Source of the DNA: a virus
Taxonomy: Duplodnaviria; Caudoviricetes
Direction: 5' to 3' (one strand)
Length of the DNA: 64,000 bases
IMG/VR virus record: IMGVR_UViG_3300033073_001635
Coordinates: 32,001-96,000 of that record
Made by a program: the position numbers and the translations under genes. Below the pieces are notes generated by a model, which saw only the letters and a program-made list of their open reading frames with translations, was not told the DNA's origin and made no database searches. Position 1 is the stretch's first letter, and every line of letters begins with the position of its first letter. This document shows positions 29,601 to 48,616 of this stretch, piece by piece.

Positions 29601-31051
29601 GGCAGTTCAGGAGTAGCATTTGCAGGTACAATCGCTTGAGGTTTTACTTCTTCTTTTTTTGTATAAGGTCTTAGTTGCAGATAATACCTTAAGGTATTAT
29701 CTGCAAATTTATAACCAAATTTATCAAAATAAAGCCTAATAAAAGGGGCTATTATTTTAAAGACTTCTTCCTCTTTTACTAATTTGTCTAAACCTTTTCC
29801 ATAAATAGCAAATCCTTCTGGGGTACCTGAACTAAAACGTAAATTTATTTCATTTTTTACATTATCATAATGTACTAAAATGGAACTGTTAATAGTTACT
29901 TTATTAAAATTAAGAAATTGGAATTGCATGTTTTCATCTATATTACCTTGTTCTAATTTTCTTAATTTTTCCAAATTAGTTGTAAGTCTTTCTTTAGTAT
30001 CTGTTGAACTAGGATTTTCAATTAAAAATTTTTCAATAAATTTAATAGATTCAGGATTTTTCTTTAAAGAAATAGAAGGTAGATAAACTTCATTGCCAGA
30101 ATCGTAAAACTCAGAAACTTGAGCATCGTTAAAATTTTCTGCAAGAAAAGTATAAAAGGAATTCTCGTTAGCTATTTCTAAATTTTTTCTTGATTTTAAA
30201 GTACGTAAAGCATCATTTATTTTTTCTCTTACTTCTTCAGATACAGATTCTCCTTTAAAACTTTCTACTTGATTTCCCATATCAATAAAAAAATCCATTT
30301 TCTCTTTAAATGGAGTATTATTTGGTTTTTTTATTTGACTATAGAATTCTTTTATAAAAAAGAATTCAGTTTTAGAATATTTATAAAATATATCATATGT
30401 TTTCTCTGACATTACATAAAAATGATCGTTAATTATTTCGTAATACTGTCCCATAGGCGCAGTAAATTCATTTTTTCCAGGCTCTACTGCGCCTGGTCTG
30501 TCTCCTGGTCTTTTTTCTGCTAGCCAACGAAAATGACTTCTACCGTCAGTGAAAAAGAATATAAAACAAAAATTTTCTTTAATATACTTTTTATATTCTT
30601 CTGAATTGTTAAATCCTAAAGAATTAATTAATTCTTTAGTTGTATTACTATAAAAACGAGAATAAGTATCATCTAATAAATATAGGGTTAAAGGCTTATC
30701 TACTTTTTTTAAATTAATCGAAATTGGAGAATTAGAAATATTATCAAAAAACCCACCATGTAGAATTTGAAATCCCTCTACACAAGGTGGACAGCCTGTA
30801 CTACCTTCTGTAAGAAAAATTACTTTTTTTGTAGCTTTACTATATCTTTTTAATGCGGTTGCAAATGCAGTAGCTTTATTTTTTAAAGCTTGTCTGACTT
30901 TTGGTACATTGTAATCATCTGTAGAATCCCCAATACCAAAATACATTACTTCAGCATATTCGTCAGAAATCCCTAATCTCTCAATTGACATGTTTTGTGC
31001 AGCTGCATATTCTTTTGCAGTCATTAATCCTTTGATACCTAATTCATTCAT
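20648..31051 (-). CDS. Giant baseplate hub protein (gp27-like) with thioredoxin-like, M15 peptidase and membrane-hairpin modules
   Basis: 3467 aa. Hub-like motifs LRAGYSSNPKELTILLSGKIADV and GEIIILGNPEINPYD...VEAVTHIFSMDTGFITEIKP; CPPC at aa 87-90; SQHYFGSAVD...FVHID; Pro-rich linker; several hydrophobic segments. Confidence 0.75.
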   Translation of the reverse strand: MNELGIKGLMTAKEYAAAQNMSIERLGISDEYAEVMYFGIGDSTDDYNVPKVRQALKNKATAFATALKRYSKATKKVIFLTEGSTGCPPCVEGFQILHGGFFDNISNSPISINLKKVDKPLTLYLLDDTYSRFYSNTTKELINSLGFNNSEEYKKYIKENFCFIFFFTDGRSHFRWLAEKRPGDRPGAVEPGKNEFTAPMGQYYEIINDHFYVMSEKTYDIFYKYSKTEFFFIKEFYSQIKKPNNTPFKEKMDFFIDMGNQVESFKGESVSEEVREKINDALRTLKSRKNLEIANENSFYTFLAENFNDAQVSEFYDSGNEVYLPSISLKKNPESIKFIEKFLIENPSSTDTKERLTTNLEKLRKLEQGNIDENMQFQFLNFNKVTINSSILVHYDNVKNEINLRFSSGTPEGFAIYGKGLDKLVKEEEVFKIIAPFIRLYFDKFGYKFADNTLRYYLQLRPYTKKEEVKPQAIVPANATPELPAPPPQPIPEPVPPPVVEPAPVAEIPPEPPKPEPKPEIQTPTPVVEEAWPLKYLTEDDLKTFKTMNSFLNGSETNESPYQPWLEKNYVSNIFTKTKVLPLTIEDGPDFKTKDNVLVSVSGGINSLTANIPILGQAYPTTQFLSSMEPNYQLNLIASNNMHANGLEDSASDLPNAIKRLEEINTTTLRTAREYKFVPDGTGILVDSFITRLFGSFKEEYLIKENIDDKESYFINVKKPISIESTEYRTLESNPGASAYTMRLSETNVYDSERLKELTTNKTAKNENLYNDVVNYALMNCDNSNYSSRNFDLKQGIVQEFTDDNVFEWQSKYFKSWDFFKSYVNKKEELKTLLSQKRISKVVNTNLYKLATEYLDPLVDYLQQFKELFKGVQITSGFTTQEEDTRTTFSQHYFGSAVDIVVPNFNVIHIFRRLKQIAENNKSKIGIGVYGNDILKRNSFRFPGSTPALEFEYATVMGGQKSETGFVHIDLRSNMLDQSSYDSKLTEYADQNDTTVAALKEFDKKKFSNLNEEEKELYFALRNLKINSFKTDENYSPEYQNSYFWSADKNGKYGINFGSNKVDIFKDKYPSEGQNTIYEIINNPNLDTGHTFDFLNYYLNKDYLDNNIIESITLLGGGSDPGIHPQFKNLFNKINIGSDTNTTLNPVENENGVDELDNDVDSDFIQNTKINFSKEANLYDESLRQDKFLKQLDELFNRDSVDSFFGTNYEEKRFVDLENSIKQKLMSSNVTNESTVYVYDVEAIDDLSKSEKYNDFVEKYKITNKERDPATEEVLRRYFKENKIDAVVESKRTEYDLEYKIYILDPLTASTFTKRETSNAKEELKVKKLLSMICDFHLLASVLLIEPYVYLDSETEINKELQRINSNFYGINVTPLYFNNLYYSITGLSLESYEDDVEDVKLKQQTPNIANKDLFLNHNPKSFTAKLLKTVNQASLTRIIDNSIFGSAVLGALGTVLFVSTMPVITTMALVLATLAVLPVPLLAGLKNESIKNKRVFYGEDYGNIGNWINIVVLKQIILDQSGINKVSFDKNSGLSILSQIYNQIDYEESLSFGLNDFLERINNGEEVWDFSKDIVKQYLINNPIILKYYKTSIFFKEMNQGLSFSLSNIINQSYFEEGEIKEKNGLVNNDVIQVKFAEDWLKYILGFPFLKGTPFFKENHDIYFDAENKEVSFDYFSSKTEEANEIFSHTDNLGLITEEDYKKRKNELQDKKKKYEDDLALANENLTNLKNQIKQMKNDFIKNVKGGPLYNIKTENFNKTLEPLNTQVETYIINIEDIKKNLEQAKSDYNKIDSSLTIDEIFKQAKESYKNTELEIAYPSGEIISGKFSNTDWPTLYSQLSFISNDLPKEPKFEENKKNVIKTFKEKLTLTDNYIAISINEKDSMHELYNKIPYLKEEFLNNFDDYLNKTNESSFSISESFQFEDKIESLFDKQDYNEKDYDFSKENEDLKYLNLKDLFFNIPSLLKKEIVEEYKTHNDKTIAFLKLLLEEVIKELLSSELFKANLNISENENTSDLFDFGGDRNNYPDIDLPMDPAEINSNVNLNPGFFYYESDFNDKLLSDIDARANNILKKSLKFMNDLEKGFVTEDGKNITKGNASDNYIKDILIDTQDSSSSSYIIKGGSGDSFRELILNPNASVKITFERDSNVNLTANDIAFIDIKNLIENSESAQKLTTLNNKLKEIEDKTNAIDVAFGSRTGFLNEPLELLNFYKKYNEKSDSLFFGNSDTDNAIAGKLGIFDDADLSNKKQDISEVMKQSGRKLFEKQFKMQKAYPTFRLFLIEEDAIESDTYFVFDDFYSFSAVKDFTVYKSKKLAADTAIIKLQNISGVLDGTKLGVIRDVDYEMATNRIKEVEAEKKAEQSNTQVIESLVLRPGVSCQLRAGYSSNPKELTILLSGKIADVSWSSSGDMCEVVIQSFGVELEVRKYGSSDADSGVSELEFHTTHKLLGWCMFRNELKHFGRFKKERLFQTGINNSESKEIAVSKESYLGTPPGYSDSMFQFFQSNWGWFVLADVLFSVGTVFIGGAKGLVKEAVVEGAEAVAKSAAKEAAEAGAKEAAEATVTEATKAAAKSTAKGSFISKTAQYLASSMNIVDNVLTGTKWYSKGLLAPFRWAFGSGWNPAKNTLIVNSVLKDIAAGTATLADDAIEASVRATLEATAAGGRGAILTGVAKSFGFNIARSGTNLERLLTVSPKALLSGIQKATQQGILNQKVANALVKEMSTNFNLLYAGRSALEAVSLGVVKSAKFSLLALGIGASIDIISSVVSASTNYLVDLLNNTLNPYSEKIALSPQDDAIYAPHPDRYIKPINEVMSVRSKDLIKKTGIAFLNAFSMYSTEATAEKLQKDIILGRTLAMDKRMYASIGENIFKLKNHTIWEVFHEMSLRHPGWVYGARQYGNGLEYRMFFGLPNQRYFGTPLNNRTIYRMNDIIRAISNNDLASMRRLVGETANLVDDYLDITNVGQSLKAQGENINAPKIKIYKSILLNEWNRITEKRFIPFRNYHLVSSKFNLVANNIKGVNNDVINEIAVLFVNNSSTENPEYTQRIIRSHENIPEDQIHAKAVKYDNCKGFNSALRYGTSELLNAAKEMYAGEIIILGNPEINPYDVILLDDQYTEMYGPIEVEAVTHIFSMDTGFITEIKPNALVTANEGLTYPIINSVVMYDVGRELAEKSPFDFVEVVKKYRKNQDQSSKDQIKKRLKELVDKWFEKEVGAFEMFGLFPNTIQVGYSDLLKMKPEAQQKIKESIVEDLLKQIQTNNIILQAEILNPNASIDSLIDTSAITGLLSSAAAIALATTIKFRTTKLPIAFFSALALASANFNNVVANQLRSPDSLLANKLIPGDMLVSQVADGNLMQIFPLYKNNKPLIYAGYDKINTKRRIKNKFGNIFTDFSDAMETFNIMLKEYANKENIIYSEPNFVSEAIGTLSDAGQTLLPFKLPKGTLRGYMNSYTPDQLINKSLK
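23290..23470 (-). repeat. Ala/Glu/Lys-rich degenerate repeat inside the hub protein
   Basis: AEAVAKSAAKEAAEAGAKEAAEATVTEATKAAAKS. Confidence 0.75.
29455..29640 (-). repeat. Pro/Glu-rich low-complexity linker inside the hub protein
   Basis: PELPAPPPQPIPEPVPPPVVEPAPVAEIPPEPPKPEPKPE; locally GC-rich DNA. Confidence 0.85.
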
Positions 31052-31053
31052 TT

Positions 31054-32265
31054 TTAATTACCTTCTTCATTTGAAATTTTGATTAAAGCTTGAGCTATTT
31101 TCTTTTGATTTTCAAGAATTCTAATTTTTTTTTCTTTAGGATCACTTATGACTTCTGTACCATTTAGAATTTCTAGTCTATAGTTTTTTAACACTTCACC
31201 TGGTAAATTCAAATAGTAATATTGATTATAATAGATTTTCATATTTAAATCTTTTTCTAACATTTTTAAAATCAATTTTATTTTTATGTATTCAGGTAAA
31301 TATGCAGAATGCAATCCTATTACTAAATTTTGAAAATTCTCCCCAACTAAACCAGATTCTAAGACTTTCATTTCTTCTTTATTAAAGATTGATTGATCAA
31401 CGCAATTAATTCCAAAGTTCTCAGTCAAAGATTTAATTTGCAAATAATTGTAATATCTAACATATACGTTACTAAAATAAGGTTCTCTAACACTCATTGA
31501 AAAATTATATTTTTTTAAATTTCTATACATTGAAGTAAAATATGTTTCTGATTCTTTTTTAGTAGAATTAGAAGTAGAATTTGTTTCTGTAGTTGCTTCT
31601 TGATTTCGTGTTTGTGTTGTTAAAGTATATCTTATTTGTGCTAATTTTTTAATATCAAAAACAGGGAAAACAAAACTAGAAAAATAAGTATCGCTTATGG
31701 GTATTAAAAGTGATTCTAATTCTTTTCGAAACATCAAATTAGGAGAATAAGGATAATAATTAAAATATTTTAAATCCAATTCCGCTTCAAAAGAAGAAAC
31801 ACCAGCTTGATAAGAACTAATTCTAAATCCGACTACAGTGCAAAACAAATTAGTAGGATTATTTTTATCAAATGCTAAATTAGGATCAATTTCTAAAATA
31901 GAATTTTTAATATAATCATTCTTTACCCATACAAAAGGATTATTCCTTATCTGAATAATCAATCTATGTAACATTAAAATCATCTCTCTATTAAATAATA
32001 ATTTAATTTGAATACCAACACTACTTCTACCAGAAACAACTTTAGTGGTTGTCTTTGATCTTAATGTTTTATAACCCCAATTAAAATTATCTTTTTGAAT
32101 TTGAATAGAAATTGGTGGAATAGGAAATAAAATATCATTTAAAATAAATCCTGTATTTTCTCCTAATTCTCGTAAATGATTACTTACTTCTGAAAAAACC
32201 ATTTCTCCAGTATATTCAAAATAATCTCTATTAATAATTTCTTTATTTAAGTCTAAAACAGCCAA
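31054..32265 (-). CDS. Putative tail tube initiator / baseplate-tube junction protein
   Basis: 403 aa, TTG start preceded by GGAG; N-terminal ILFPIPPISIQIQK...YKTLRSK pattern resembles tube-initiator domains; lies between the tape-measure locus and the hub. Confidence 0.5.
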   Translation of the reverse strand: MAVLDLNKEIINRDYFEYTGEMVFSEVSNHLRELGENTGFILNDILFPIPPISIQIQKDNFNWGYKTLRSKTTTKVVSGRSSVGIQIKLLFNREMILMLHRLIIQIRNNPFVWVKNDYIKNSILEIDPNLAFDKNNPTNLFCTVVGFRISSYQAGVSSFEAELDLKYFNYYPYSPNLMFRKELESLLIPISDTYFSSFVFPVFDIKKLAQIRYTLTTQTRNQEATTETNSTSNSTKKESETYFTSMYRNLKKYNFSMSVREPYFSNVYVRYYNYLQIKSLTENFGINCVDQSIFNKEEMKVLESGLVGENFQNLVIGLHSAYLPEYIKIKLILKMLEKDLNMKIYYNQYYYLNLPGEVLKNYRLEILNGTEVISDPKEKKIRILENQKKIAQALIKISNEEGN

Positions 32266-32267
32266 AA

Positions 32268-35200
32268 TTATTCTCCCATAAGTTGATCAAGATAACCACC
32301 TGTTAATGGTCTACGATTATCATTGATCATGATACTTGAACTACCTCCATTTTGCAAAGCAATCTTATTCATATAATTCGCTTCTTCAATATTTCTAACG
32401 TTTCCTTTAATTAAATATGATTGATTTCTTGCAAGCATTGTACTCCCAGGACTTTGAACTCTACCAACCATATCTTTATAAAAAGGTCTTTGCATAGAGT
32501 CTGGAGACATTGATACATCTGAATTGTAATTTTGAACTTGAGCTAATTCTCTATTTTTAATTTTCTCATTTACTCTTGTATCAGTAAAAATTTCTTCAGG
32601 TCGAAGTTCTTCAGTATCATAAGAAGAAGATAATAAATATGATGCGCCAACTACTGCTGCAGTAGCAGCAGTCATCTTCATGTTTGATAAATTAGCAATA
32701 TTATCACCAATCATATTTAAAACATTTGATTGTCTATTACCAAGTAGGTTTTCAAATAAAGCTTGTTGTTCAGGAGTACTTAAACCTTGAGATCCAACCG
32801 CAGCTTCAAGCACATCAAAATTTCTAACCAACTTTAAATAATCTTCATTTGTAAAACGTTTATTCTTACCTGCGCTCATTAAAGCGCCTAGCATATTGTC
32901 AGAAGCGTAAGGACTTAAATTATTTGCTTTTACAGTTTTAATAATATTTCTGAGCCCTTCAAAAATATCATCAAGATTAAATGTAATTCTCTCTTTATTT
33001 AAACCTTCTGTATAAGCTGAAGCTAATGGTTCAGGCATATTTTCTACACTAACATTTTTTACAATTAAATCATTTAAGAAATCGGTGTCTTTAAAAACAG
33101 TTCCTCTCATAAAGTTTTCAAAATCAGTAGTATCCCCAGTTTCAAAAGCTGTGTTCAAAGTTTTAGTAAATAGCTCGCCGATATTAGTAGCTAAATCAAG
33201 AGATTTAGATTTAATAACAACAGATTCTTGAGAAGCAGAAATCAATAATTGTGCTGCTAAATCTGTTTTTCTAAAATCATTTAAATTCATATTTCCTTTA
33301 GCTAAATTATAAGCTGCACCAACTGCTACTTTTTTAACTGCAACGTCAACAGAACCAGTACCAGCTTTAAGAATTCTTTCTTTTGAAGATTCTGATTTTA
33401 ATAAATCTTGATATGTAATATTTGCAACATCCATTCTTTCTGCAACTTTTGACATTGCTTTTTTAGCAATCTCCATATTTACAACCATCATGGCACCGGT
33501 TTTTTGCATCTCTCTTATATTTCTTTGTATCTGACCCTTGAATGCATTACTGGTTTTTTCATTATTTAAAATGATTTGATAGATATCACCGTCAAAGTCA
33601 CCCACTGCAGCTCTAGATATATCTGTACGTACTTTTATATCGAAAGTATTAGATGGATCTTTTGTATTTTCAAATTTAAAAGTAGTTTCAAATTCAGGAT
33701 ACACTGCTCTACCAGCACCCAAACCAGTAGCTCTTGTATAATTCTGATCATATAGATCTACAGCTTCATTAATAATATCATCTAAACTATGATATTGTTT
33801 TTCTTCAGTTAAATCTATATTTGCTATTTTATTATCTATCTCTGATATTTTAACATTTTCTTCTTCTATAAAACCTTGTAATTTTTCAATTTTTTCATTT
33901 TGCTCTAAAGTTGTTAAATCCATATTTCTCGGTGAACGAAGAATTGGTTTATAAAGTAATCTTTGAGAATCACCTTGTTCAAAATCGTCTAATTTTTGCA
34001 AAAGATTGTCTTCATTATTTTTTACTTTTTCCAATAATTGTTCTTGTTTTGTACGTACATCATCATGCTCTACATAATATGCTTCATCTTCTTCATGATA
34101 AAAATCATCATAAATAAGTTCATCCATTTCTGTAAAATAATTATGCGCACGAATAAAGTTCTTTAATAAATCTTTATTTACTTTTTTTACAGTTATTCTC
34201 TCTGGTTCATCAGTTGGTATATGTGTACCTGTTTCAGGATCGTAATTAGTTTTATAAACAATTTCTGATTCACCAGTTTCTTGATTATATTTAGTTAAAT
34301 TAATTTCTTCTTCTTCAGTAAAAGCTTCTAATCCTAAAATTATATCCGATTTACCTAGAAAAGTTTCTGGTTGTCTAGAAGTAATTGGCATCCCCATATC
34401 ATCAAGTGCATTAACGTATGTAGGTTTACCTTCTGAATCAAGTATCACATTTCCTTCAGTATCTATTGCTAGATTTTTAAGTTCTCCCTTTTTTATTATA
34501 TTACCATCAGTATCATACTCATCAAAATCAGAAGCTAATTCTTCATAATAGAAATTTGCACTAGTTTTTCGACTTAGACCATTATTTTCTAATTCATCAA
34601 TTGATGAATCAATATTAAATTTTTCTCGTCTAGCTTCTTTTGCTTTTTCTTGTAAAGTAGCTAGTTTCTCTTCTTCTTCTTTAATTAACTGAGCATTTTT
34701 ATTAATGCGCCCTACTTTATATTTTGTTCTTTCTTCTGCTTCGTATTTAGATATATCTTCATCTAATTCTTCTAAAGTGCTGTATTGTTTGCTTTCGTCA
34801 TGATAAGTAGGTTTTGTTTTATCAGGTTTTCCATCGGGTCCTAATTCATAACCTTTGATTATTTTTACTTTAGAAAGTGCTTTCTTTTGTTTTTCACCTA
34901 AAGCCTCTTCTACTTTATTCTCTAAATGATTTTTATAAAACTCTTTTTGATCATCATCTAACTCTTCAAAAGGTTTCATTAATCGAGTAGCAGATATTTT
35001 ACCAAAAGTTGTTTGATCTGGATTCTGTTTTAAATTATCTTGAAAAGCTTTAATTAAAGCTTTGTCTTCGTCTGAATCTGTAATATTTCTAACAAATTTA
35101 CCTTCATCATCAACAACATGATAATCATATTCATCACTAAAAAACGATTGAAGAAAATCTTTACGAGCTTGATAAATTTCTTGTTCTTCCCGTATGAGCA

Positions 35201-38200
35201 TTTTAGGAATTATAGATTGTGCATAATATAACATTGAATTTACAAAGTTATTTGCACCTTTTGTTTTTCCTTGAATCATTGATTCTACAAATTGTTTTTT
35301 TAAAGTAAATTCTTGAATTTTTGCTTCAGAATTACTTGTATTAGTTATTTGATCTTGGTATTTACCTTCTTTTAGATTCTCTAATAGATCAAAAAGCATT
35401 GAAGTTGCATGAAAATGATTTGTGGTTGGAACATCTGGATCTTCCATTAATGTTTTTACAAAAGAAAACAAACTTTCAATCGCTTTCTTCTTTTCTTGTT
35501 TATGTAATTTTGAGAATGGTATCAATTTTCCATTCTCATCATAAGTCATTGCTGTAAAATTATTTGATACATCACGCCTAAGATAATCCGAAGTAAACAA
35601 TAATTCAGCAAAATCATCTTTGACTTCATGTAAAAATCTAGGCAATTCTAATAAATCTAATTGATCAGTATCAACTCCTAAAGTTCTATTTTGTTGTAAA
35701 CCAAAATCTTGCAATGCAAAAATATCACTAATAGCTTGGCTATTTATTTCAGTAGGACTTATTGGACGCTTTAAATTTAAATTTTCTTTTAATGATTCTC
35801 GATACAGTTTAGAATCATTTAAAAATCTATTTAATCCTTTTTGTATGACATCTTCAGCTAGTGCAGGAGAATATCCAAAATGAGCATATGCTTCTTGTAA
35901 TGTTTTGATTTCTTTATTAATACTACTAGCTTTTTCATTCATTTTTTTATAATTAAAAATTTTAAAAAATGCTTTGTAAATAGGATTATCATTTAAATCT
36001 GAATGTTCGGTAGGATCACTACTTAATTGTTGAATATAATTTTCTAAATAAGTATATACTGTTTTGCTATTTACACTTACTTGTTTATTTTTGTCAGAAA
36101 TATATTTTACAATAGTTTTATTAGGATCATTAGGGTCTGCGTAATCAATTAAATTTCCATTCTCATCAATATTTTCAATATTATATTTTATATAATTAAA
36201 CCCAGAATAAGTTCTTTCCTTGCCGTTTCTAGTTACAGTTTTTGATTCCCTATCAAAAGTTATGATTTTTCTAATTTTGTTACCTTCAGAGTCTTTTAGA
36301 AAATCAGATCCATCATGTTCATAAAAAACTTTTTGAGCATCATCATCTAAAGAATCTATAAATGGTATAAATCTTTTAGCAACTCTAGCACGACCAAGTC
36401 CTTTGTTTTCAAGCTGTGTTCTTTCTTCAAAACTTAAATCGGAATTATTCATCTCATATAAGAAATCAAATAAATTTAATCTTGCTTTTTTATTCTTAAA
36501 AAAAGCATTAGCTTCATCTGATTGCATGGTATCTTTCATGCTTTCAAATACTTTATTAAACTCTTCTATTTTTGTTCTATTGTAAAATTCATGACTTCCA
36601 AAAGTTTCAAGAATCTCTTTATTTGTAATAGGAAAATCAGGATGTATGATTGTTAAATTTAAAAATTTCTCAGTTTGGGTTTTATAAACAGGTTTACCAA
36701 ACTTATCAAGCATAGGCTTTCCTTTATTTTTTCCACTTTGATGTAATACTTCGATTTGACTTAAAATTTCCTCTTCATGTCCACCAAAAGAATTAATAAT
36801 TACTTTTTGAAAATCACGTTGTTTATTTAGTTTCTCTAAATTACTTTTACTACGTTTACTTTGCGTCAAAAGTAATTTCAATCTATGAGATTGAAGATCA
36901 ATTTCTCTATAATTTTTAATTATAGCTTCTTCATAAGTATTGTCATATCCATATCCTCTATAATATCTATCTAAAGCATCAGTTCTTTTTATTTGATCTC
37001 CAACATTTTCAAAAGAAGTCCCTGTACTATCTAGTATCATATTAGGATTCAAACTGTTATAAGCATATCTAGAATCCTTACCTAATAACCTGCCTGCTTG
37101 AAGTCTTCGATTCCTATCATTTTTGATATCTTTTATATTAGAAGATTTTTGTTTATAATAATTTAAAAACCCTTTTCCTACTCTATCTACTGATTCTTCA
37201 ACATTAGTATCTTTATTTATTCTAGTATAAGAAAAATTACCTTTAAACATTTCACTTCTTTGTTGTCGTAAAGTTTGAATGAAATCTTGTTTTTGTTGTA
37301 TATTCCCAGCTAAACGTTCTTGCTTTTGTTGCTTTTGATTTGAAAAGAATCTTGCTTTTGCTATTCTTTCTTGAAGATTTTCATAACTTGAAATTAGATT
37401 AGAATTTAAAGTATTTTCAATACCTTTTACATTTCTTTGATATGCAGTTTGTAAATTAAAAATTCTTTCATTTAAATTAGAAACGTTACTTTCTATTTTA
37501 TTTCTTTTATTAGTTAAATATTCCATTGTAGTTTTTTGAAAATCAAACGATAAATCTTTAAAAATACCAGTTTTGTTTAATTGATTTAAAACATTTAAAG
37601 TTTTAAAATTTAAAAAAGAAAAGTTATTTCCAGAATCGGCTGCTGATTGTATTGATTGATCAATGTAATTAATAACATCTTCGCCGCCATTCTGAATTAT
37701 CTTATCTCTAAATGCACTGTTATTACCCATAAATTCAGATAAAGATGATAAGAATATTTGCCCTTTAGTATTATAATTCAACACATCAGAATAATGAGAT
37801 TCAGGTAGATTCTCCCCAATATATTTATACATATCAATATTTAAAGCAATGTGAGACATACCTAGTTGTGGATTACGAAAATTTATACCCGAAATACCTT
37901 GAGGTTTAAAACTTCCATTTTCTAAACTATTTACTATTCTCATAGTTCCATCTGAAATTTGCAAAACATCCTCTTCCATACCAAATAAAAACTTTTTATA
38001 TAGTTCTCGTTTTTCTGTTGGATCTTGTGCATTAAACGTTTTACTAGCATACATAAATGCTTGCGTATCCAAAAACATATTATAACCATTGGATTCAATA
38101 AAAGCTGCATTCATTTTTTGAAGAATTTTAGCATTATCTAAATCATCGCTTACAAATCTAGTAATTTGATCTTTTTCAGGATCACCTAAACGAACACCCT

Positions 38201-41200
38201 TACCTTCTAACGTTGCAGAACCAGACATTCTACCAGCTAAAATCTGTCGTTGCATACCCCCTAACATGTGTTGTAATTGTTTTACATGATACATTGCTTG
38301 ATTTACTTTATTTGTTTGATCAACTTCTTCAGTTGAAGTAGATGCTTCTCTTAAAAAAGCAAAAATATCATTTACTTTTCTATATAATTCAGATTCAATT
38401 TTTAAATCTTTTTGATTACTTTTAATTTCAACACCAGAAACAACATCTAAAACATTGCTTAAAGGCACTACAATTTCAGTTTTAGTTTCGCCAATTTGTT
38501 TTAAAAAGCTTTGATATGCAGCAGTATTTATATTTTCATTACCTTCAACACCTCTAAGAAACATTTGTTGAATATCCATAACAAAGCCCATGGCTTGAGG
38601 ATTTAATTCTTGTTGTTCTTTTAAAAAATTACTTAAAGCGGTAGCTGAATCAATATCAACATTTGCTCTTAAAAACTTTTTAGTAAATTCTTCATCGGCT
38701 CTAAACAAATAACCTTGACCTACAAAATCATCAATTGAATGTTTCAAAGCACCTGCATCCATACTGGGATGCAATGACTGCCCCATTAATAGCAATGGTG
38801 TCATTGCTTGAGCTTTTTCAGCAACACCAGATTGTTTTGAAAATAATTCAGCCATATATTCTGCTGCTTCATCTTCATTCATTTGAAACATACCCATTAA
38901 ATTACCCATTACAAAGTTAGCAAAACGAGGTTCTACTCTAGCCATTCTATCTTTGTTAATAGTAGATTGTGTACCAGCAAATGTAGACATTGCACCAATA
39001 AAAAATCCTCTTTCAGCAGTTTCAAAAACTACTTTTTGTTGCTCAGCAGTTAATCTTGTATTAGCTAAAAGACCTTTTAATTGATCTTTAAAAGCAACGG
39101 CTTTTTTACCAGGTTCAGTTGCTGGTTCTTTTAAATTATGGTACGCAGGAATTAACAAGTTTCCTAAAACTTCAGGAGTTACTTGTTGAGCTGTTGCGCC
39201 TGATGCAGTAGGTAATTCAGCATTATCAGCAATTAAATTAGAAAAAGTTTCAATGATATTTTCTGCTACAATCTTTTGATATTTAGGTGCATGCTGTTTT
39301 ACCTTTGTATCCATTTCAGCAGCTTCAATTTTTCCTTGCATATTAAAAACATTAGATTCAATAAAATCATCAGCATAACCTAACATTTTTAAAGAACCAT
39401 AAAGTAAAGAAGACAAAAATTGTGGGCCCTTTGTAACAACGTCCATACCTGCTAACATTGTACTTTCAATTTTACCACCAAATGTTTTCATATAAGTATT
39501 TTCAAAAAAACGACTAGCTTCTTGCATTGCAGCTTCTCTATTTATAAATTTTCCAGTAACTGGATCTTTTTTATATAAAGCCTGCGCTAAAACATTTTTC
39601 ATACCACCTTCATCAAGTATTTGTTCTTCACCAAAGAAAACACCCTTAACAGCTTCTGAAAATATCTTACCTTCATGACTACCATAAACTTCACCAGCAA
39701 TACTAAACATACCAGTTCTTTCAGTATTAACATTGGTATTCATTTTTAACTTCAAACCCATCATGCCTTTTTGTTTTTTTATCAAAGTAGGCATGTTATC
39801 TTTAAAACCTAAAACTAGATTTCCATCTTTATCTCCATAATTTTTAAAAAAAGTTTCTAATTCACTTCCAAACAAATTAACTTCTTCACCAGCTAATATC
39901 TTTTGAAAAACATCAGATTCATAAATACTTAGATTAGTCATCCCCTTAGTATATTGAAAAGATTTTTGTAAAGGTTCTGATACTAAATGCATACCACCTC
40001 TATATTGCATTGCATCTGCCAAACCTAATCTTTGACCTTTTTTAGCATTACTATTGAAATCTATAATTACACCAGTATTTGCACCTACTAAATCTAAATT
40101 TTGAAATTCTTTACCAACTACTAATAAATCAGCACCTTTAGTTGCAGATGTTTTAATAGAACCAGTTCTACCAAAACTTAAAGATTGCATTCCTCTTTGC
40201 ATATCTTCAAAGGTTTCAAATTTAGTATTTGCAGGAAAATAACCAAGCATAGCTTCTGGTTTAGCAAATAACTGAGCAATACGTGCAGAACCAGGTAATA
40301 AAGATTGATCTTTAATACCATGAGTTCTAGCAATATTATAAGGTATCACTGCAGGATTAGAAACGTTTTGACGTCCAAGAATTGCATTTGGATCAAGTAT
40401 TACAGCTTGTTGTTCAAAAGAAGTGCTCTTTAATTCCTTTCTAATTGTACCTGCTTGACCTTGTGCAGGACCAAAAATACCAATATTTAAAGATACTAAT
40501 TCATTTAAATCTACAGGAAATTGACCACCTGTTTTACCTCTATTAAAAAAATAAGCAGTATTTGACATTATTTGAATGCCGTGCTTTTGTTGAATACCAG
40601 CATAACCAAAATTCATTTGACCATGCGTAGGGTAATATTGAGTTAAACCAGAAAGAACTTCCATAAAAGAATTTCTTTCAGCTTGATTCATATAATGAAT
40701 GTCTTCTGGAGAATAAGTTTTTAATAAATTAATTGCAAAATCTTCAAAAGAAGATTTAGGCATTTTTTTTGCAAAAATATTTCTAGCAATTTTTTGTTTT
40801 TCAGCAAGATTCGCACCCTTACTAACTTCAGCAAAATCTGCTGCATCAAAATAATGATTATGTGCAACCTTTGCATTTCCGTAATCACTAGATAATCTTA
40901 CATATCTTCCATGTGTACCTTCAGCAGCCATTAAAGGAATTATTAATGGTTGTTTTGAAGATCTATTATGAGTAGAACTTATTCTAGCATAAACACCATA
41001 TGCATCTTCATTAGCTTCTTTTATAATATCAAAAGAAACTTTAAAATTAGGATTATTATTTCCCAATCTCAAATGATCACTAATTATATTAAATCTATTT
41101 AGAACAGTGTTCTTTACTTCGTTACTTTTACCTTTAAAAATACTCCATAGCTGATCATCTTGTAAAGATGATGCAGTTAAATTTTGTTTATGATAAATTG

Positions 41201-41936
41201 TATTCACATTCTTTTGCGCACTAAAAGTTTCGAATGGATTAGTGATAGTTACATTTCCACCATTATTAGTTCTTCGAGAGCTAGTAGATATTAAATGTGC
41301 AACACTAGAATTTTTTTGATGTAAACTAACATATTTTTCTTCGAGCGTTTTATTACTTCTAATTGAATCTAAAAAACCTGCTATATCTGCTTTGTCAGCA
41401 TCACTCATTCTAGAAGAATCTTCAATTGCACCTCGAACCTTTGTTATTAATTTAGCTTTAGCTTCTTCATCTAAAGCTAAATCAGGATCATTAACCATAT
41501 CTAATATAACTGATAAATGACTAATTCTTTGATTTTCTTTTGCAGCTAAAATTTCATCTAATTTTGATCGAGCATCTACAGTAGCCATTTCATCAAATAA
41601 ATTAAGTGTAACTTCTTTTGCTTTCTCTTTTGCTAAAGCATTTCTAGCTTGATAATCACTAATTGATCTATCTCTAATAGCTTTACCAATTTTTCTAGTA
41701 GGTAATGCAGTGTCTTCCTTTATCCCACTAGAATTCATAAAATTAGTTAAATTTCTAACACCAGGAATAGGGTTCTTCATATTAGGATTATCATTTGCAA
41801 ATCCTAAGTAACCTGCACCTAAAACAAAAGAAGCACCACCAATAGTTTTTAAAACATCAAAACTATTTCTTGCAAAAGCTCTACGTTCTTCTGTGTCTTT
41901 TTTATAAACATTATAAATTAAACTTGGATTTGTCAT
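32268..41936 (-). CDS. Giant virion protein with a single-chain two-barrel RNA polymerase signature (candidate virion RNA polymerase)
   Basis: 3222 aa. GDFDGD at 33585..33602 (aa 2779-2784); FRNPQL (R1354); ILAGRMSGSAT (R1236); EGKIFSEAVKGV (K757, K764); hydrophobic Gly/Ala segments at both termini; lies between the tape-measure-like gene and the baseplate genes. Confidence 0.75.
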   Translation of the reverse strand: MTNPSLIYNVYKKDTEERRAFARNSFDVLKTIGGASFVLGAGYLGFANDNPNMKNPIPGVRNLTNFMNSSGIKEDTALPTRKIGKAIRDRSISDYQARNALAKEKAKEVTLNLFDEMATVDARSKLDEILAAKENQRISHLSVILDMVNDPDLALDEEAKAKLITKVRGAIEDSSRMSDADKADIAGFLDSIRSNKTLEEKYVSLHQKNSSVAHLISTSSRRTNNGGNVTITNPFETFSAQKNVNTIYHKQNLTASSLQDDQLWSIFKGKSNEVKNTVLNRFNIISDHLRLGNNNPNFKVSFDIIKEANEDAYGVYARISSTHNRSSKQPLIIPLMAAEGTHGRYVRLSSDYGNAKVAHNHYFDAADFAEVSKGANLAEKQKIARNIFAKKMPKSSFEDFAINLLKTYSPEDIHYMNQAERNSFMEVLSGLTQYYPTHGQMNFGYAGIQQKHGIQIMSNTAYFFNRGKTGGQFPVDLNELVSLNIGIFGPAQGQAGTIRKELKSTSFEQQAVILDPNAILGRQNVSNPAVIPYNIARTHGIKDQSLLPGSARIAQLFAKPEAMLGYFPANTKFETFEDMQRGMQSLSFGRTGSIKTSATKGADLLVVGKEFQNLDLVGANTGVIIDFNSNAKKGQRLGLADAMQYRGGMHLVSEPLQKSFQYTKGMTNLSIYESDVFQKILAGEEVNLFGSELETFFKNYGDKDGNLVLGFKDNMPTLIKKQKGMMGLKLKMNTNVNTERTGMFSIAGEVYGSHEGKIFSEAVKGVFFGEEQILDEGGMKNVLAQALYKKDPVTGKFINREAAMQEASRFFENTYMKTFGGKIESTMLAGMDVVTKGPQFLSSLLYGSLKMLGYADDFIESNVFNMQGKIEAAEMDTKVKQHAPKYQKIVAENIIETFSNLIADNAELPTASGATAQQVTPEVLGNLLIPAYHNLKEPATEPGKKAVAFKDQLKGLLANTRLTAEQQKVVFETAERGFFIGAMSTFAGTQSTINKDRMARVEPRFANFVMGNLMGMFQMNEDEAAEYMAELFSKQSGVAEKAQAMTPLLLMGQSLHPSMDAGALKHSIDDFVGQGYLFRADEEFTKKFLRANVDIDSATALSNFLKEQQELNPQAMGFVMDIQQMFLRGVEGNENINTAAYQSFLKQIGETKTEIVVPLSNVLDVVSGVEIKSNQKDLKIESELYRKVNDIFAFLREASTSTEEVDQTNKVNQAMYHVKQLQHMLGGMQRQILAGRMSGSATLEGKGVRLGDPEKDQITRFVSDDLDNAKILQKMNAAFIESNGYNMFLDTQAFMYASKTFNAQDPTEKRELYKKFLFGMEEDVLQISDGTMRIVNSLENGSFKPQGISGINFRNPQLGMSHIALNIDMYKYIGENLPESHYSDVLNYNTKGQIFLSSLSEFMGNNSAFRDKIIQNGGEDVINYIDQSIQSAADSGNNFSFLNFKTLNVLNQLNKTGIFKDLSFDFQKTTMEYLTNKRNKIESNVSNLNERIFNLQTAYQRNVKGIENTLNSNLISSYENLQERIAKARFFSNQKQQKQERLAGNIQQKQDFIQTLRQQRSEMFKGNFSYTRINKDTNVEESVDRVGKGFLNYYKQKSSNIKDIKNDRNRRLQAGRLLGKDSRYAYNSLNPNMILDSTGTSFENVGDQIKRTDALDRYYRGYGYDNTYEEAIIKNYREIDLQSHRLKLLLTQSKRSKSNLEKLNKQRDFQKVIINSFGGHEEEILSQIEVLHQSGKNKGKPMLDKFGKPVYKTQTEKFLNLTIIHPDFPITNKEILETFGSHEFYNRTKIEEFNKVFESMKDTMQSDEANAFFKNKKARLNLFDFLYEMNNSDLSFEERTQLENKGLGRARVAKRFIPFIDSLDDDAQKVFYEHDGSDFLKDSEGNKIRKIITFDRESKTVTRNGKERTYSGFNYIKYNIENIDENGNLIDYADPNDPNKTIVKYISDKNKQVSVNSKTVYTYLENYIQQLSSDPTEHSDLNDNPIYKAFFKIFNYKKMNEKASSINKEIKTLQEAYAHFGYSPALAEDVIQKGLNRFLNDSKLYRESLKENLNLKRPISPTEINSQAISDIFALQDFGLQQNRTLGVDTDQLDLLELPRFLHEVKDDFAELLFTSDYLRRDVSNNFTAMTYDENGKLIPFSKLHKQEKKKAIESLFSFVKTLMEDPDVPTTNHFHATSMLFDLLENLKEGKYQDQITNTSNSEAKIQEFTLKKQFVESMIQGKTKGANNFVNSMLYYAQSIIPKMLIREEQEIYQARKDFLQSFFSDEYDYHVVDDEGKFVRNITDSDEDKALIKAFQDNLKQNPDQTTFGKISATRLMKPFEELDDDQKEFYKNHLENKVEEALGEKQKKALSKVKIIKGYELGPDGKPDKTKPTYHDESKQYSTLEELDEDISKYEAEERTKYKVGRINKNAQLIKEEEEKLATLQEKAKEARREKFNIDSSIDELENNGLSRKTSANFYYEELASDFDEYDTDGNIIKKGELKNLAIDTEGNVILDSEGKPTYVNALDDMGMPITSRQPETFLGKSDIILGLEAFTEEEEINLTKYNQETGESEIVYKTNYDPETGTHIPTDEPERITVKKVNKDLLKNFIRAHNYFTEMDELIYDDFYHEEDEAYYVEHDDVRTKQEQLLEKVKNNEDNLLQKLDDFEQGDSQRLLYKPILRSPRNMDLTTLEQNEKIEKLQGFIEEENVKISEIDNKIANIDLTEEKQYHSLDDIINEAVDLYDQNYTRATGLGAGRAVYPEFETTFKFENTKDPSNTFDIKVRTDISRAAVGDFDGDIYQIILNNEKTSNAFKGQIQRNIREMQKTGAMMVVNMEIAKKAMSKVAERMDVANITYQDLLKSESSKERILKAGTGSVDVAVKKVAVGAAYNLAKGNMNLNDFRKTDLAAQLLISASQESVVIKSKSLDLATNIGELFTKTLNTAFETGDTTDFENFMRGTVFKDTDFLNDLIVKNVSVENMPEPLASAYTEGLNKERITFNLDDIFEGLRNIIKTVKANNLSPYASDNMLGALMSAGKNKRFTNEDYLKLVRNFDVLEAAVGSQGLSTPEQQALFENLLGNRQSNVLNMIGDNIANLSNMKMTAATAAVVGASYLLSSSYDTEELRPEEIFTDTRVNEKIKNRELAQVQNYNSDVSMSPDSMQRPFYKDMVGRVQSPGSTMLARNQSYLIKGNVRNIEEANYMNKIALQNGGSSSIMINDNRRPLTGGYLDQLMGE

Positions 41937-48184: not shown

Positions 48185-48616
48185 TTAATCTATATGTTCT
48201 ATTTCTCTACCAATAAAATTATATTCAGTCAAGATAACATTATCATCTATTTGAATAGATTGTCCATGACCCATAATAAAGCAATTTTTTAATTTCATTT
48301 TTTTTGAACTACTGCAATCCATCCAAAATTCAATAGTAATATCAAAAAAATCTATTTGAGAAAAATCAATATTTGAACCTGCTTTGACTTCAGAATAAAC
48401 ATCATTAGGAGATTTAAAATTAATAACAAATCTTCCTTGAACAATATGTTTGCCTTCTAAAACTGCATCAAATTTATTCGAATAGTAAGAGTATACAGGT
48501 TGTTTTGAATAAGTTACTTGATAAGATACACCAACTGCATCTATTTCATTATTATTAATTAATAATTTAATATTCGCACCAGAAAAATACTCATATGAAT
48601 AATTATCAGTTGTCAT
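48185..48616 (-). CDS. Tail tube-like protein (paralog 3)
   Basis: YFSGANI...VSYQV...KQPVY...G...VQGRFVINF...QSIQIDD...EYNFIGR; same pattern as 49364..50104. Confidence 0.7.
   Translation of the reverse strand: MTTDNYSYEYFSGANIKLLINNNEIDAVGVSYQVTYSKQPVYSYYSNKFDAVLEGKHIVQGRFVINFKSPNDVYSEVKAGSNIDFSQIDFFDITIEFWMDCSSSKKMKLKNCFIMGHGQSIQIDDNVILTEYNFIGREIEHID

What the first reader, a model, noticed from the sequence alone, without database searches (positions are those of the whole stretch)
33720..37830. Insertion of about 1370 aa splitting the catalytic barrel of the putative RNA polymerase
Seen: RNP (aa 1354) and GDFDGD (aa 2779) are about 1425 residues apart. Established: in cellular beta-prime the equivalent motifs are only about 35 residues apart. 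The intervening region is bracketed by heptad-like runs on both sides (KIESNVSNLNERIFNLQ and QERLAGNIQQKQDFIQTLRQQ at ~37250-37520; EEEEKLATLQEKAKEARREK and IEKLQGFIEEENVKISEIDNKI at ~33815-34700). Inference: the insert loops out on a long antiparallel coiled-coil stalk. It could be a tether or ruler inside the tail, an autoinhibitory module removed by proteolysis, or a variable cargo slot. It has no visible intein termini.
Basis: partly seen in the sequence, partly recalled or inferred. Interest (0 to 1): 0.8.

Follow-up and report, generated by a model that had tools for sequence, protein, structure and literature searches.

The report
Giant insertion inside polymerase catalytic barrel
A 3,222-residue tail-module protein of an uncultured contractile-tailed phage is a single-chain cell-type RNA polymerase whose catalytic barrel is interrupted by a fast-evolving, mostly helical arm of about 1,350 residues, and relatives show the same site at every size from none to about 1,380 extra residues.

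Summary
In the ORF at window 32268-41936 (minus strand), R1354 of FRNP and D2780 of GDFDGD are 1,426 residues apart.

Both motifs are conserved across about 100 relatives: R in 90/91, P in 91/91 and the three D in 91/91. The rival arginine near DFDGD (R2743) is kept in only 27/91.

A confident AlphaFold model of a short relative is closest to two-barrel RNA polymerases (QDE-1 and RDR2, Z 9.7). It places the R-x-P strand and the DxDxD loop in one double-psi barrel, with a small helical module in the hairpin between them.

The motif spacing is 110-150 residues in most of the family, not about 35. In one well-supported clade it grows at that same site through 210, 330, 700 and 1,050 to 1,493.

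The insert is translated and constrained, but loosely: dN/dS is 0.41, against 0.08 in the cores. Its length is conserved, and it has been exchanged by recombination.

A model of the sister protein pairs the two flanking helices as an antiparallel hairpin. This supports the proposed stalk.

Tests for an intein, an intron, a mobile element and a tail ruler gave no support. The function of the insert remains inferred.

The scan reached the same reading earlier on a near-identical phage (e1-2797372).

The parts
32268..41936 (-). ORF of 3,222 aa (P0001): single-chain two-barrel RNA polymerase homolog in the tape-measure slot of a contractile-tail module
   Evidence: sheath, baseplate wedge, portal and capsid neighbours; fold of relative P0025
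39639..39668 (-). aa 757-766, K-x-F-S-x-x-x-K-G motif: candidate two-lysine motif of the beta-like barrel (DPBB-B)
   Evidence: K757, F759 and K764 are nearly invariant in 91 sequences. The structural matches to QDE-1 and RDR2 start at the equivalent position of the model. Assignment to DPBB-B is inferred.
38217..38234 (-). aa 1235-1240, G-[KR]-x-x-G-S: first strand of the beta-prime-like barrel (DPBB-A)
   Evidence: G1235 in 85/91, K/R1236 in 77/91, G1239 in 89/91, S1240 in 70/91. It corresponds to strand E508-516 of the model, where the matches to minimal DPBB proteins begin.
37848..37880 (-). aa 1353-1363, FRNPQLG..H: conserved R-x-P strand of DPBB-A (R1354, P1356)
   Evidence: R in 90/91 and P in 91/91. 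It lies at the end of strand E617-624 of the model.
37821..37829 (-). aa 1370-1372: end of the strand after the R-x-P motif (family R, here K1371); last barrel element before the insert
   Evidence: R in 86/91. Corresponds to strand E632-640 of the model.
33762..37811 (-). aa ~1376-2725: lineage-specific insert (~1,350 aa). It is charged, poor in G/P/A, has no repeats, no known domain and no membrane segment.
   Evidence: Boundaries come from the local HMM matches and the family alignment.
37413..37550 (-). aa 1463-1508: heptad-like N-side arm of the predicted stalk
   Evidence: It aligns to P0004 helix 1417-1454, which pairs with the C-side helix in the model.
33765..33908 (-). aa 2677-2724: heptad-like C-side arm of the predicted stalk, leading back into the barrel
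   Evidence: It aligns to P0004 helices 2261-2301 and 2314-2332.
33696..33725 (-). aa 2738-2747, G-x-G-x-G....P: conserved re-entry element, the first strand after the insert
   Evidence: G2740 in 84/91, G2742 in 88/91, P2747 in 70/91, but R2743 in only 27/91. Corresponds to strand E731-735 of the model.
33582..33602 (-). aa 2779-2785, GDFDGD: metal-binding loop of DPBB-A
   Evidence: D2780, D2782 and D2784 in 91/91. Corresponds to D767/769/771 of the model, between H760-763 and E772-777.
33387..37439 (-). aa ~1500-2850: tract 96-99% identical in DNA to the relative in L007, while flanks and cores are 82-91% identical (recent recombination of the insert module)
32271..32339 (-). aa 3200-3222: C-terminal tail motif (N-D-x-R-R-P ... 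G-E) conserved in the whole family
   Evidence: D3206, R3208 and P3210 are nearly invariant. The C-part lies at the very C-terminus in the full-length hits, about 90 of the 136 listed.

Best explanation
The ORF encodes a single-chain two-barrel RNA polymerase with the QDE-1/RDR-like order: beta-like barrel, connector, beta-prime-like barrel, then long helices. It is encoded in the tail module of a myovirus.

In the beta-prime-like barrel, the hairpin between the strand after the R-x-P motif and the strands before the DxDGD loop carries a helical module of about 55-75 residues in every family member. In one clade the distal tip of that module has been expanded repeatedly. In this phage the expansion is about 1,350 residues (aa ~1376-2725).

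The chain leaves and re-enters the barrel through two helices that pair antiparallel, so the barrel can still close and the catalytic residues stay together. The insert is made as part of the protein and is mostly alpha-helical. It keeps its length while its sequence drifts four to five times faster than the cores, and it is swapped between related phages by recombination.

Shown here: the conservation of the motifs, the variable spacing at one site, the fold of the short relative, the selection pattern and the recombination. Predicted for the sister protein only: the stalk pairing.

Inferred, about 40% likely: the arm is a non-catalytic structural appendage. On this view it serves the protein while it is a virion or tail component, in packing beside the tape-measure-like neighbour and in exit and refolding on ejection. 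This is by analogy with the non-catalytic regions of other virion polymerases.
For: - Motif positions and conservation.
- Homologs: 136 relatives of 1,650-3,265 aa; in the full-length ones the catalytic C-part lies at the C-terminus. The R-to-D spacing forms a graded series from 110 to 1,493 in 105 proteins.
- Phylogeny: all spacings of about 210 or more fall in one clade with 99-100 support, apart from two unplaced rows (175, 212) and one long branch (202); the clade's own values run from 144 to 1,493, with large differences between sisters.
- Site: small and medium expansions map to HMM nodes ~50-70 of the inter-motif profile. For the largest inserts only the two ends of that profile can be matched.
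- Fold of P0025 aa 615-1814: mean pLDDT 82, pTM 0.81. The order of elements is strand with R623/P625, strand, five helices (649-724), three strands, D767/769/771, strand.
- Structural matches: the best ones are RNA polymerases. These are ZmRDR2 and QDE-1 (Z 9.7), vaccinia, Pol II and Pol I (8.0-8.3), P74-26 gp62 (7.7), Mtb beta-prime (7.0) and P23-45 gp96 (6.2). Minimal DPBB proteins align over model 507-779 (84 of 86 residues, rmsd 2.5 A), a span that contains both motifs and the helical module.
- Sister protein P0004 aa 1195-2394: both barrel halves are confident (pLDDT 77-92 and 81-86). The insert is mostly long helices. The N-side and C-side helices are matched jointly to antiparallel helical hairpins and map to the window's heptad runs.
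- Selection: dN/dS is 0.08-0.09 in the cores and 0.41 in the insert. A second pair shows 93%, 67% and 96% identity for N core, insert and C core.
- Length conservation: the insert is 1,336 aa versus 1,340 aa at 51% identity, and 768 versus 765 aa at 25% identity in another pair.
- Codon usage in the insert equals that of the cores.
- Recombination tract.
Against: - No structure was obtained for the window's own protein across the insert. It cannot fit the 1,200-residue limit, and the complex predictor was unavailable.
- Closure of the barrel across the insert in the P0004 model is inferred from the high confidence of both halves. It was not read from coordinates.
- The stalk pairing rests on a shallow alignment in that region (pLDDT 56-87), and AlphaFold tends to pair long helices.
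- No sequence profile links the family to any solved polymerase or curated family. Foldseek found nothing significant in the PDB. The structural Z scores of 8-10 are only moderately above the background the tool quotes.
- Catalytic activity, presence in the virion and any function of the insert are untested.
Confidence: 0.78

Rival explanations
1. There is no in-barrel insertion. The beta-prime-like barrel is complete within about 60 residues upstream of DFDGD and uses the G-x-G-R....P element as the R-x-P equivalent. FRNP belongs to an upstream domain, so the 1,350 residues are an inter-domain linker.
For: R2743 lies 37 residues before D2780, the canonical spacing. P2747 is conserved in 70/91. 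hhalign against the gp66 family did not align FRNP with gp66's R-I-P motif, although that alignment was not significant.
Against: R2743 is R in only 27/91 and is Q in the sister clade, whereas R1354 and P1356 are conserved in 90 and 91 of 91. In the confident model of P0025, minimal DPBB proteins align from residue 507 to 779. That span includes the R623/P625 strand, the helical module and the DxDxD loop.
Confidence: 0.06
2. The insert is removed or separated after synthesis. This could happen by proteolysis during virion maturation or after ejection, or by natural splitting into two chains, so that the working enzyme is a two-piece barrel without the arm. An intein or intron would be the extreme versions.
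For: One relative (L001) has an in-frame TGA inside the insert, followed by an open frame that continues to the DFDGD part. If real, a split within the insert is tolerated. Virion proteins of large phages are often processed (general knowledge).
Against: The reading frame is continuous here and in five relatives. No intein or Hint domain was found, no Rfam intron and no flanking repeats. The insert has the codon usage of the cores, dN/dS of 0.41 and a conserved length, so it is translated and selected. The TGA aligns to a Ser codon in the 83%-identical relative and may be a sequencing error or a mutation in a single metagenomic contig.
Confidence: 0.1
3. The insert is a ruler. The polymerase lies in the tail lumen like a tape measure, and the helical insert sets or matches tail length.
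For: The gene sits in the tape-measure slot. The insert is predicted to be mostly long helices. Its length is conserved while its sequence diverges, as in tape measures. P23-45 gp96 is a precedent for a polymerase fused to a tape measure (PMC10770324).
Against: The upstream tape-measure-like protein stays at 1,269-1,675 aa while the motif spacing runs from 110 to 1,493. For example, a neighbour of 1,463 aa goes with a spacing of 210, and one of 1,449 aa with 1,493. About 70 relatives have no expansion at all. This assumes the upstream protein is the ruler, which was not shown.
Confidence: 0.08
4. The protein is a degenerate, non-catalytic relic, and the insertion has destroyed the polymerase.
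For: No profile recognises it as a polymerase. Activity is untested.
Against: All three aspartates, the R-x-P motif and the lysine motif are kept across about 100 proteins, including every long-insert member. The cores are under strong purifying selection (dN/dS 0.08-0.09).
Confidence: 0.04

Closest known systems
Neurospora QDE-1 and plant RDR2 (single-chain two-barrel RNA polymerases of RNA interference)
   Same: They are the best structural matches to the model of the short relative (Z 9.7; 306-391 residues aligned). Both barrels lie in one chain in the order beta-like then beta-prime-like. The R-N-P-x-L..G-[ND] motif resembles the RDR motif R-N-P-C-L-H-P-G-D (from my own knowledge), followed by DxDGD.
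   Different: There is no detectable sequence-profile similarity. In RDRs the two motifs are, from memory, a few tens of residues apart. Here they are 110 apart in the family baseline and 1,426 apart in this protein. The context is a phage tail module.
Thermus phage P23-45 gp96, tape-measure-fused virion RNA polymerase (PMC10770324; PDB 8H2M/8H2N)
   Same: It is a two-barrel polymerase encoded in the tail module at the tape-measure position. It is the only experimentally shown case of that arrangement. The paper notes lineage-specific insertions in the DxDxD barrel (DPBB-A).
   Different: gp96 has the polymerase at the N-terminus of a 5,002-aa tape measure with membrane and metallopeptidase domains. 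Here the tape-measure-like protein is a separate upstream ORF, and the polymerase has no hydrophobic segments. The structural match is weaker (Z 6.2 and 5.7). gp96 is from a siphovirus, whereas this is a contractile-tail phage.
crAss-like phage phi14:2 gp66 virion RNA polymerase (PDB 6VR4; bioRxiv 10.1101/2020.03.07.982082)
   Same: It is a giant single-chain virion two-barrel polymerase in which most of the mass has no known fold. It has an R-I-P motif 39 residues before DFDID.
   Different: No profile similarity was found, even family against family. Its barrel is compact, and it comes from a podovirus. My initial guess that the window was crAss-like was wrong.
Lineage-specific insertions of bacterial RNA polymerase, e.g. 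Si3 in the trigger loop (188 aa in E. coli, about 650 aa in cyanobacteria, both sizes from memory; PMC10895346) and the BEAN/HABAS insertions (PMC11515920)
   Same: Large domains are looped out of a catalytic element at a permissive surface point. They are clade-specific and variable in size.
   Different: From my own knowledge, those insertions are beta-rich SBHM-type or similar modules that sit in the trigger loop or in beta, not between the R-x-P strand and the DxDGD loop. That spacing is essentially fixed at about 35 residues in cellular enzymes. This insert is two to seven times larger and helical.
Coliphage N4 virion RNA polymerase (about 3,500 aa; PMC13434306)
   Same: It is a giant virion-carried polymerase whose non-catalytic regions serve encapsidation and ejection. 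This is the analogy behind the proposed role of the insert.
   Different: It has a T7-like single-subunit fold, and the extra regions flank the catalytic domain rather than interrupting it.

Membership tests
Two-barrel (DPBB) RNA polymerases, single-chain type | DxDGD metal-binding loop in the beta-prime-like barrel | tested here: met
   GDFDGD at aa 2779-2784. The three D are invariant in 91 of 91 relatives.
Two-barrel (DPBB) RNA polymerases, single-chain type | Conserved R-x-P strand in the same barrel as the DxDGD loop | tested here: met
   R1354 in 90/91 and P1356 in 91/91. In the model of relative P0025 the R623/P625 strand lies within the span 507-779 that aligns to minimal DPBB proteins. 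For the window's own protein this follows by homology.
Two-barrel (DPBB) RNA polymerases, single-chain type | Second, beta-like barrel with a two-lysine motif upstream in the same chain | tested here: inconclusive
   K757 and K764 are nearly invariant. The QDE-1 and RDR2 alignments begin at model residues 59-61, next to K68/K75. The barrel itself was not examined residue by residue.
Two-barrel (DPBB) RNA polymerases, single-chain type | Overall fold similarity to solved RNA polymerases | tested here: met
   With VIA-align, the top 14 of 48,161 chains are all RNA polymerases (Z 6.7-9.7). Foldseek alone was not significant.
Two-barrel (DPBB) RNA polymerases, single-chain type | Recognition by curated sequence models (Pfam, NCBIfam, PHROGs) or by PDB sequence profiles | tested here: not met
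   No hit.
Two-barrel (DPBB) RNA polymerases, single-chain type | Template-dependent, Mg-dependent RNA synthesis | not testable with these tools
   Needs purified protein.
Tape-measure-fused virion RNA polymerase (P23-45 gp96 type) | Polymerase and tape measure (membrane segments, metallopeptidase) in one polypeptide | tested here: not met
   P0001 has no 19-residue window with mean hydropathy above 1.6 and no peptidase domain. The tape-measure-like 1,494-aa protein is a separate upstream ORF.
Tape-measure-fused virion RNA polymerase (P23-45 gp96 type) | Gene located between the tail tube/sheath genes and the baseplate genes | tested here: met
   Sheath gene at 50121-52679 and baseplate wedge gene at 18089-19330. 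The same gene order is seen in eight relatives' contigs.
Intein | Hint/intein splicing domain and terminal splice motifs | tested here: not met
   No Pfam intein, Hint or homing-endonuclease hit anywhere in P0001. The size (about 1,350 aa) and the graded series of sizes in relatives also do not fit an intein.
Self-splicing intron in the gene | Group I/II intron RNA structure; interrupted reading frame | tested here: not met
   The ORF is continuous. Rfam gave only one sub-threshold microRNA match.
Si3-type insertions of bacterial RNA polymerase | SBHM beta-domains inserted in the trigger loop | tested here: not met
   The insertion lies between the R-x-P strand and the DxDGD loop, upstream of the long helices. 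It is predicted to be mostly helical in the sister protein.

The most novel reading that the evidence does not exclude
The split barrel may be a built-in activation switch. While the protein is stored in the virion or tail in an extended state, the two halves of the catalytic barrel would be held more than 1,300 residues apart, leaving the enzyme inert. After ejection the two stalk helices would zip together, the barrel would close, and the polymerase would become active. The arm itself would be a recombining, host-facing module that sets where or when this happens. The natural series of insert sizes from 0 to about 1,380 residues would then be a set of differently tuned switches.
Probability: 0.12. 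Interest if true: 0.85.

Novelty: new variant of a known kind. Interest (0 to 1): 0.62.

Why it matters
In cellular enzymes the distance between the R-x-P strand and the DxDGD loop is one of the most fixed features of two-barrel RNA polymerases, about 35 residues. Here nature provides an enzyme family in which this site accepts anything from a 55-residue helical hairpin to about 1,400 residues, while every catalytic residue is kept.

That gives a ready-made series for asking how much a double-psi barrel can be interrupted and still fold. It also bears on how virion-carried polymerases are stored and switched on, and it identifies a permissive site for engineered insertions.

The result also documents that a large, unannotated family of tail-module polymerases exists in contractile-tailed phages. 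Structural matches include uncharacterized proteins of Acinetobacter phage ME3 and Microcystis phage MaMV-DC. I found no paper describing this family or its insertion in the library I could search.

Tried and rejected
- **crAss-like origin.** This was my first guess and I rejected it. The neighbours include a tail sheath and a baseplate wedge. Neither hhalign against gp66 nor against a 119-member gp66 family alignment is significant.
- **Sequence searches that found nothing.** Single-sequence and profile searches of PDB sequences, Pfam, PHROGs and NCBIfam gave no meaningful hit. tblastn of the C-part against 50,697 phage records gave no match.
- **Foldseek.** The search against the PDB with the good model gave nothing at E <= 0.001; the AR9 polymerase ranked 10th with probability 0.8.
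- **ESM Atlas.** The insert gave no usable hit.
- **Insert content.** There are no internal repeats and no BLAST similarity to the inserts of other clades, apart from weak similarity between the first ~290 aa of this insert and that of P0004.
- **Mobile-element signs.** There are no meaningful direct or inverted repeats at the insert borders. Codon usage is identical to the cores.
- **hmmalign across the giant inserts.** It failed by pushing the N-side into the flank. I replaced it with local two-piece matching.
- **Second polymerase.** A search of the 113-kb virus record found no second DxDGD polymerase, but the record is only about 69% complete.
- **Alignment and submission failures.** Two alignment calls failed internally. 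Two alignments were too large for the structure predictor.

Full report
**1. What is in the window**

The finding lies inside one ORF, window 32268-41936 on the minus strand, of 3,222 aa (P0001). FRNP begins at aa 1353 and DFDGD at aa 2780. The distance from R1354 to D2780 is 1,426 residues. The given coordinates 33720-37830 correspond to aa ~1370-2739, the stretch between the motifs.

The window is part of a 113-kb IMG/VR virus record, estimated 69% complete.

The neighbours include:
- a portal, a capsid protein and a tail sheath (50121-52679);
- a baseplate wedge subunit (18089-19330);
- a 3,467-aa protein with a lysin-like domain.

So this is a contractile-tailed phage, and the ORF sits where a tape measure gene is expected. 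It follows a 1,494-aa ORF with hydrophobic and coiled segments. My first guess, a crAss-like phage, was wrong. Notes from other first-stage readers prompted the check.

**2. Are the two motifs real?**

No curated library or PDB sequence search recognises the protein.

A word-based search found four relatives. An exhaustive profile search with the C-terminal 533 residues found 136 relatives. The full-length ones are 1,650-3,265 aa, the rest are shorter and mostly fragments, and in the full-length proteins the part with the aspartates lies at the C-terminus.

Iterated local HMMs for the region around FRNP and the region around DFDGD located both elements in 105 proteins. In a 91-row alignment with P0001 as first row:

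| Position | Conservation |
|---|---|
| R1354 | R in 90 |
| P1356 | P in 91 |
| Position 1371 (K in P0001) | R in 86 |
| D2780 / D2782 / D2784 | D in 91 |
| K757, K764 (upstream lysine motif) | nearly invariant |
| G1235, G1239 (G-K-x-x-G-S motif) | nearly invariant |

One exists, G-x-G-R....P with R2743 lying 37 residues before D2780. However, that arginine is kept in only 27 of 91 sequences and is Q in the sister clade. The conserved arginine is therefore R1354.

**3. Spacing in relatives**

The R-to-D spacing is 110-151 residues in about 70 proteins of 1,650-1,830 aa. It then runs through 175-282, 328-429, 684-858 and 982-1,119 to 1,391-1,493.

On trees built from the flanking conserved blocks only, the large expansions cluster. 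One clade of 27 rows, with support 100 (FastTree) and 99 (IQ-TREE), holds every spacing of 210 or more, apart from two rows that stay unplaced (175 and 212) and one long branch (202). Inside that clade the values run from 144 to 1,493, and sisters differ widely: 210 beside 1,493, 416 beside 813, and 144 inside a group with 328-1,391.

Small and medium expansions map to the same place, nodes ~50-70 of a 134-node profile of the short inter-motif segment. For the largest inserts only the ends of that profile can still be matched: nodes 3-26 on the N side and 82-133 on the C side in P0001.

So the correct baseline for this family is about 110 residues, not the ~35 of beta-prime or the 39 of gp66. 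The excess here is about 1,300-1,350 residues.

**4. Structure of a short relative**

I modelled aa 615-1814 of P0025 (1,814 aa, spacing 144) with a 62-row alignment. The model has mean pLDDT 82 and pTM 0.81.

Around the motifs the order of elements is:
1. strand 617-624, ending in R623/P625;
2. strand 632-640;
3. five helices between 649 and 724;
4. strands 731-735, 738-744 and 750-757;
5. a short helix;
6. D767/769/771;
7. strand 772-777.

Foldseek found nothing significant in the PDB.

The exhaustive VIA-align search gave RNA polymerases as its best 14 matches:

| Match | Z |
|---|---|
| ZmRDR2 (391 residues aligned) | 9.7 |
| QDE-1 (306 aligned, rmsd 4.0 A) | 9.7 |
| Vaccinia polymerase, Pol II | 8.3 |
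| Pol I | 8.0 |
| P74-26 gp62 | 7.7 |
| M. tuberculosis beta-prime | 7.0 |
| P23-45 gp96 | 6.2 |

Two minimal double-psi barrels (7dww, 7dbo) align over model residues 507-779. For 7dww, 84 of 86 residues align at rmsd 2.5 A.

That span contains the R-x-P strand, the helical module and the aspartate loop. So the helical module is an excursion from one barrel. By comparison with beta-prime (my reading of the strand order, inferred) it sits in the hairpin that follows the R-x-P strand.

These Z values are moderate by the tool's own caution. The uniform identity of the top matches is what carries weight.

**5. Structure across a large insert**

The window's insert plus both barrel halves exceeds the 1,200-residue limit. 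I therefore modelled the sister protein P0004, aa 1195-2394, which holds the whole barrel and its ~1,000-residue insert. P0004 is 39% identical to P0001 in the N core and 53% in the C core.

Overall confidence is low (mean pLDDT 62.8, pTM 0.38). Both barrel halves are nevertheless confident: 77-92 for residues 1-150 and 81-86 for 1145-1200.

The insert is predicted as mostly long helices, up to 55 residues, with some confident sub-domains.

The structural search returned as top matches only antiparallel two-helix hairpins. These include a designed heterodimer, the CHMP4B hairpin, prefoldin, SMC and Rad50 arms and FliJ, with Z 8.4-9.8 and rmsd 1.7-4 A for most. Each match aligned over model range ~226 to ~1110.

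This means helix 223-260 and helix 1067-1107, about 800 residues apart in sequence, are placed side by side. They map to P0001 aa 1458-1497 and 2682-2706.

This supports the stalk idea, with three cautions:
- the alignment is shallow in that region;
- AlphaFold readily pairs long helices;
- the window's own protein was not modelled. The complex predictor that could have co-folded its two halves was unavailable.

**6. How the insert evolves**

Against P0003, dN/dS is 0.09 for aa 1-1380, 0.41 for aa 1381-2700 and 0.08 for aa 2701-3222, at similar dS. The insert is therefore translated and constrained, but four to five times more loosely than the cores.

An independent pair (L001 and L002) shows 93% identity in the N core, 67% in the insert and 96% in the C core.

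Length is conserved while sequence drifts. The insert is 1,336 versus 1,340 residues at 51% identity. In another clade it is 768 versus 765 residues at 25% identity.

Inserts of different sub-clades share little or no detectable similarity.

Codon usage and GC3 of the insert equal those of the cores. The lower G+C comes from the second codon position, that is, from amino-acid composition: more D/E/K/R and less G/P/A.

Compared with the 93%-identical relative in L007, DNA identity is 82-91% in the flanks and cores but 96-99% across aa ~1500-2850. Against L006, the cores are 80-92% identical and the insert 51-74%. The insert therefore exists as strongly diverged alleles that move between otherwise similar phages by recombination.

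**7. What it is not**

- **Not an intein or a homing element.** No such domain was found, and the graded series of sizes is incompatible with one.
- **Not an intron.** The frame is continuous, and Rfam gave only a sub-threshold chance match.
- **Not a recently acquired mobile element.** There are no border repeats, and the codon usage is native.
- **Probably not the tail ruler.** In nine contigs the upstream tape-measure-like protein is 1,269-1,675 aa regardless of whether the spacing is 110, 144, 210, 1,057, 1,391, 1,426 or 1,493. This assumes that the upstream protein is the ruler.

**8. Most likely mechanism**

Shown:
- a conserved polymerase core, with all signature residues kept and under strong purifying selection;
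- a permissive site in the catalytic barrel that already carries a helical module and has been expanded many times.

Predicted: the chain leaves and returns through paired helices, so the barrel can close.

Inferred: the arm is a non-catalytic appendage. I put about 40% on a role connected with life as a virion or tail component, meaning packing, exit through the tail and refolding. This is by analogy with the non-catalytic regions of N4 and crAss-like virion polymerases and with P23-45 gp96 (PMC13434306; bioRxiv 10.1101/2020.03.07.982082; PMC10770324). The allelic divergence and recombination would also fit a host-facing role.

Autoinhibition by keeping the barrel halves apart until ejection is the most interesting reading that the data do not exclude.

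**9. Comparison and novelty**

In fold the enzyme works like QDE-1/RDR-type single-chain polymerases. In genomic position it resembles P23-45 gp96. It fails the sequence-based membership tests for every curated family.

Large insertions into catalytic elements of RNA polymerases are known (Si3 in the trigger loop, PMC10895346; BEAN/HABAS, PMC11515920). The P23-45 paper also mentions lineage-specific insertions in the DxDxD barrel.

I found no description of an insertion of this size between the R-x-P strand and the aspartate loop, nor of this protein family. I therefore rate it a new variant of a known kind.

The same reading was reached earlier in this scan for the near-identical protein of another genome (e1-2797372). 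I re-derived it independently here. What is added here:
- the family-wide spacing series;
- the insertion site;
- the selection and recombination analysis;
- the two structural models.

Noticed in passing
L001:16553-16555 (relative of the window's ORF): A single in-frame TGA sits at codon 2185, inside the insert of the homologous gene. The frame stays open for 57 codons and runs into a 545-aa ORF that carries GDFDGD. The TGA aligns to a Ser codon in the 83%-identical relative P0004. It could be a sequencing error, a nonsense mutation, or a naturally split or read-through gene.
   Followed up: partly
window 33387-37439 versus L007: This is a mosaic tract. DNA identity to the relative in GCA_964407615.1 is 96-99% across aa ~1500-2850 of the ORF but 82-91% in the rest of the gene and its flanks. 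A third relative (L006) has an insert only 51-74% identical. The insert has been exchanged recently by recombination.
   Followed up: yes
window 32271-32339 and 41940-42010: The polymerase ends in a motif N-D-x-R-R-P...G-E that is nearly invariant in the whole family. The upstream 1,494-aa tape-measure-like protein ends in a similar N-D-D-R-Q motif. This may be a shared signal for anchoring to the hub or for incorporation into the tail.
   Followed up: no
window 48606-49334 and 49364-50104: Two adjacent ORFs of about 245 aa just downstream of the sheath gene both hit phrog_9206 (labelled major head protein) and phrog_34314. From their position they look like tandem paralogs, probably of the tail tube, despite the label.
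   Followed up: no
window 20648-31051 and 31054-32265: The 3,467-aa protein downstream has a strong match to an endolysin-labelled PHROG (phrog_20474, E 5e-40, aa ~3075-3154). The 403-aa ORF between it and the polymerase hits the same PHROG weakly. The gene order (1,300-1,700-aa protein, polymerase, sometimes a ~400-aa ORF, then a protein of 3,000 aa or more) recurs in relatives' contigs.
   Followed up: no
model of P0025 (L005:5652-9251) versus BFVD: The viral structure library gives matches to uncharacterized proteins of an uncultured Caudovirales phage (E 7e-15), Acinetobacter phage vB_AbaM_ME3 (E 2e-6) and Microcystis phage MaMV-DC (E 3e-3). Cultured phages may therefore carry members of this family.
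   Followed up: no
window 1-64000: Every ORF of 300 aa or more in the window is on the minus strand, and GC skew is negative throughout. G+C is 23-37%, with third-codon-position G+C near 12% in the polymerase gene.
   Followed up: no
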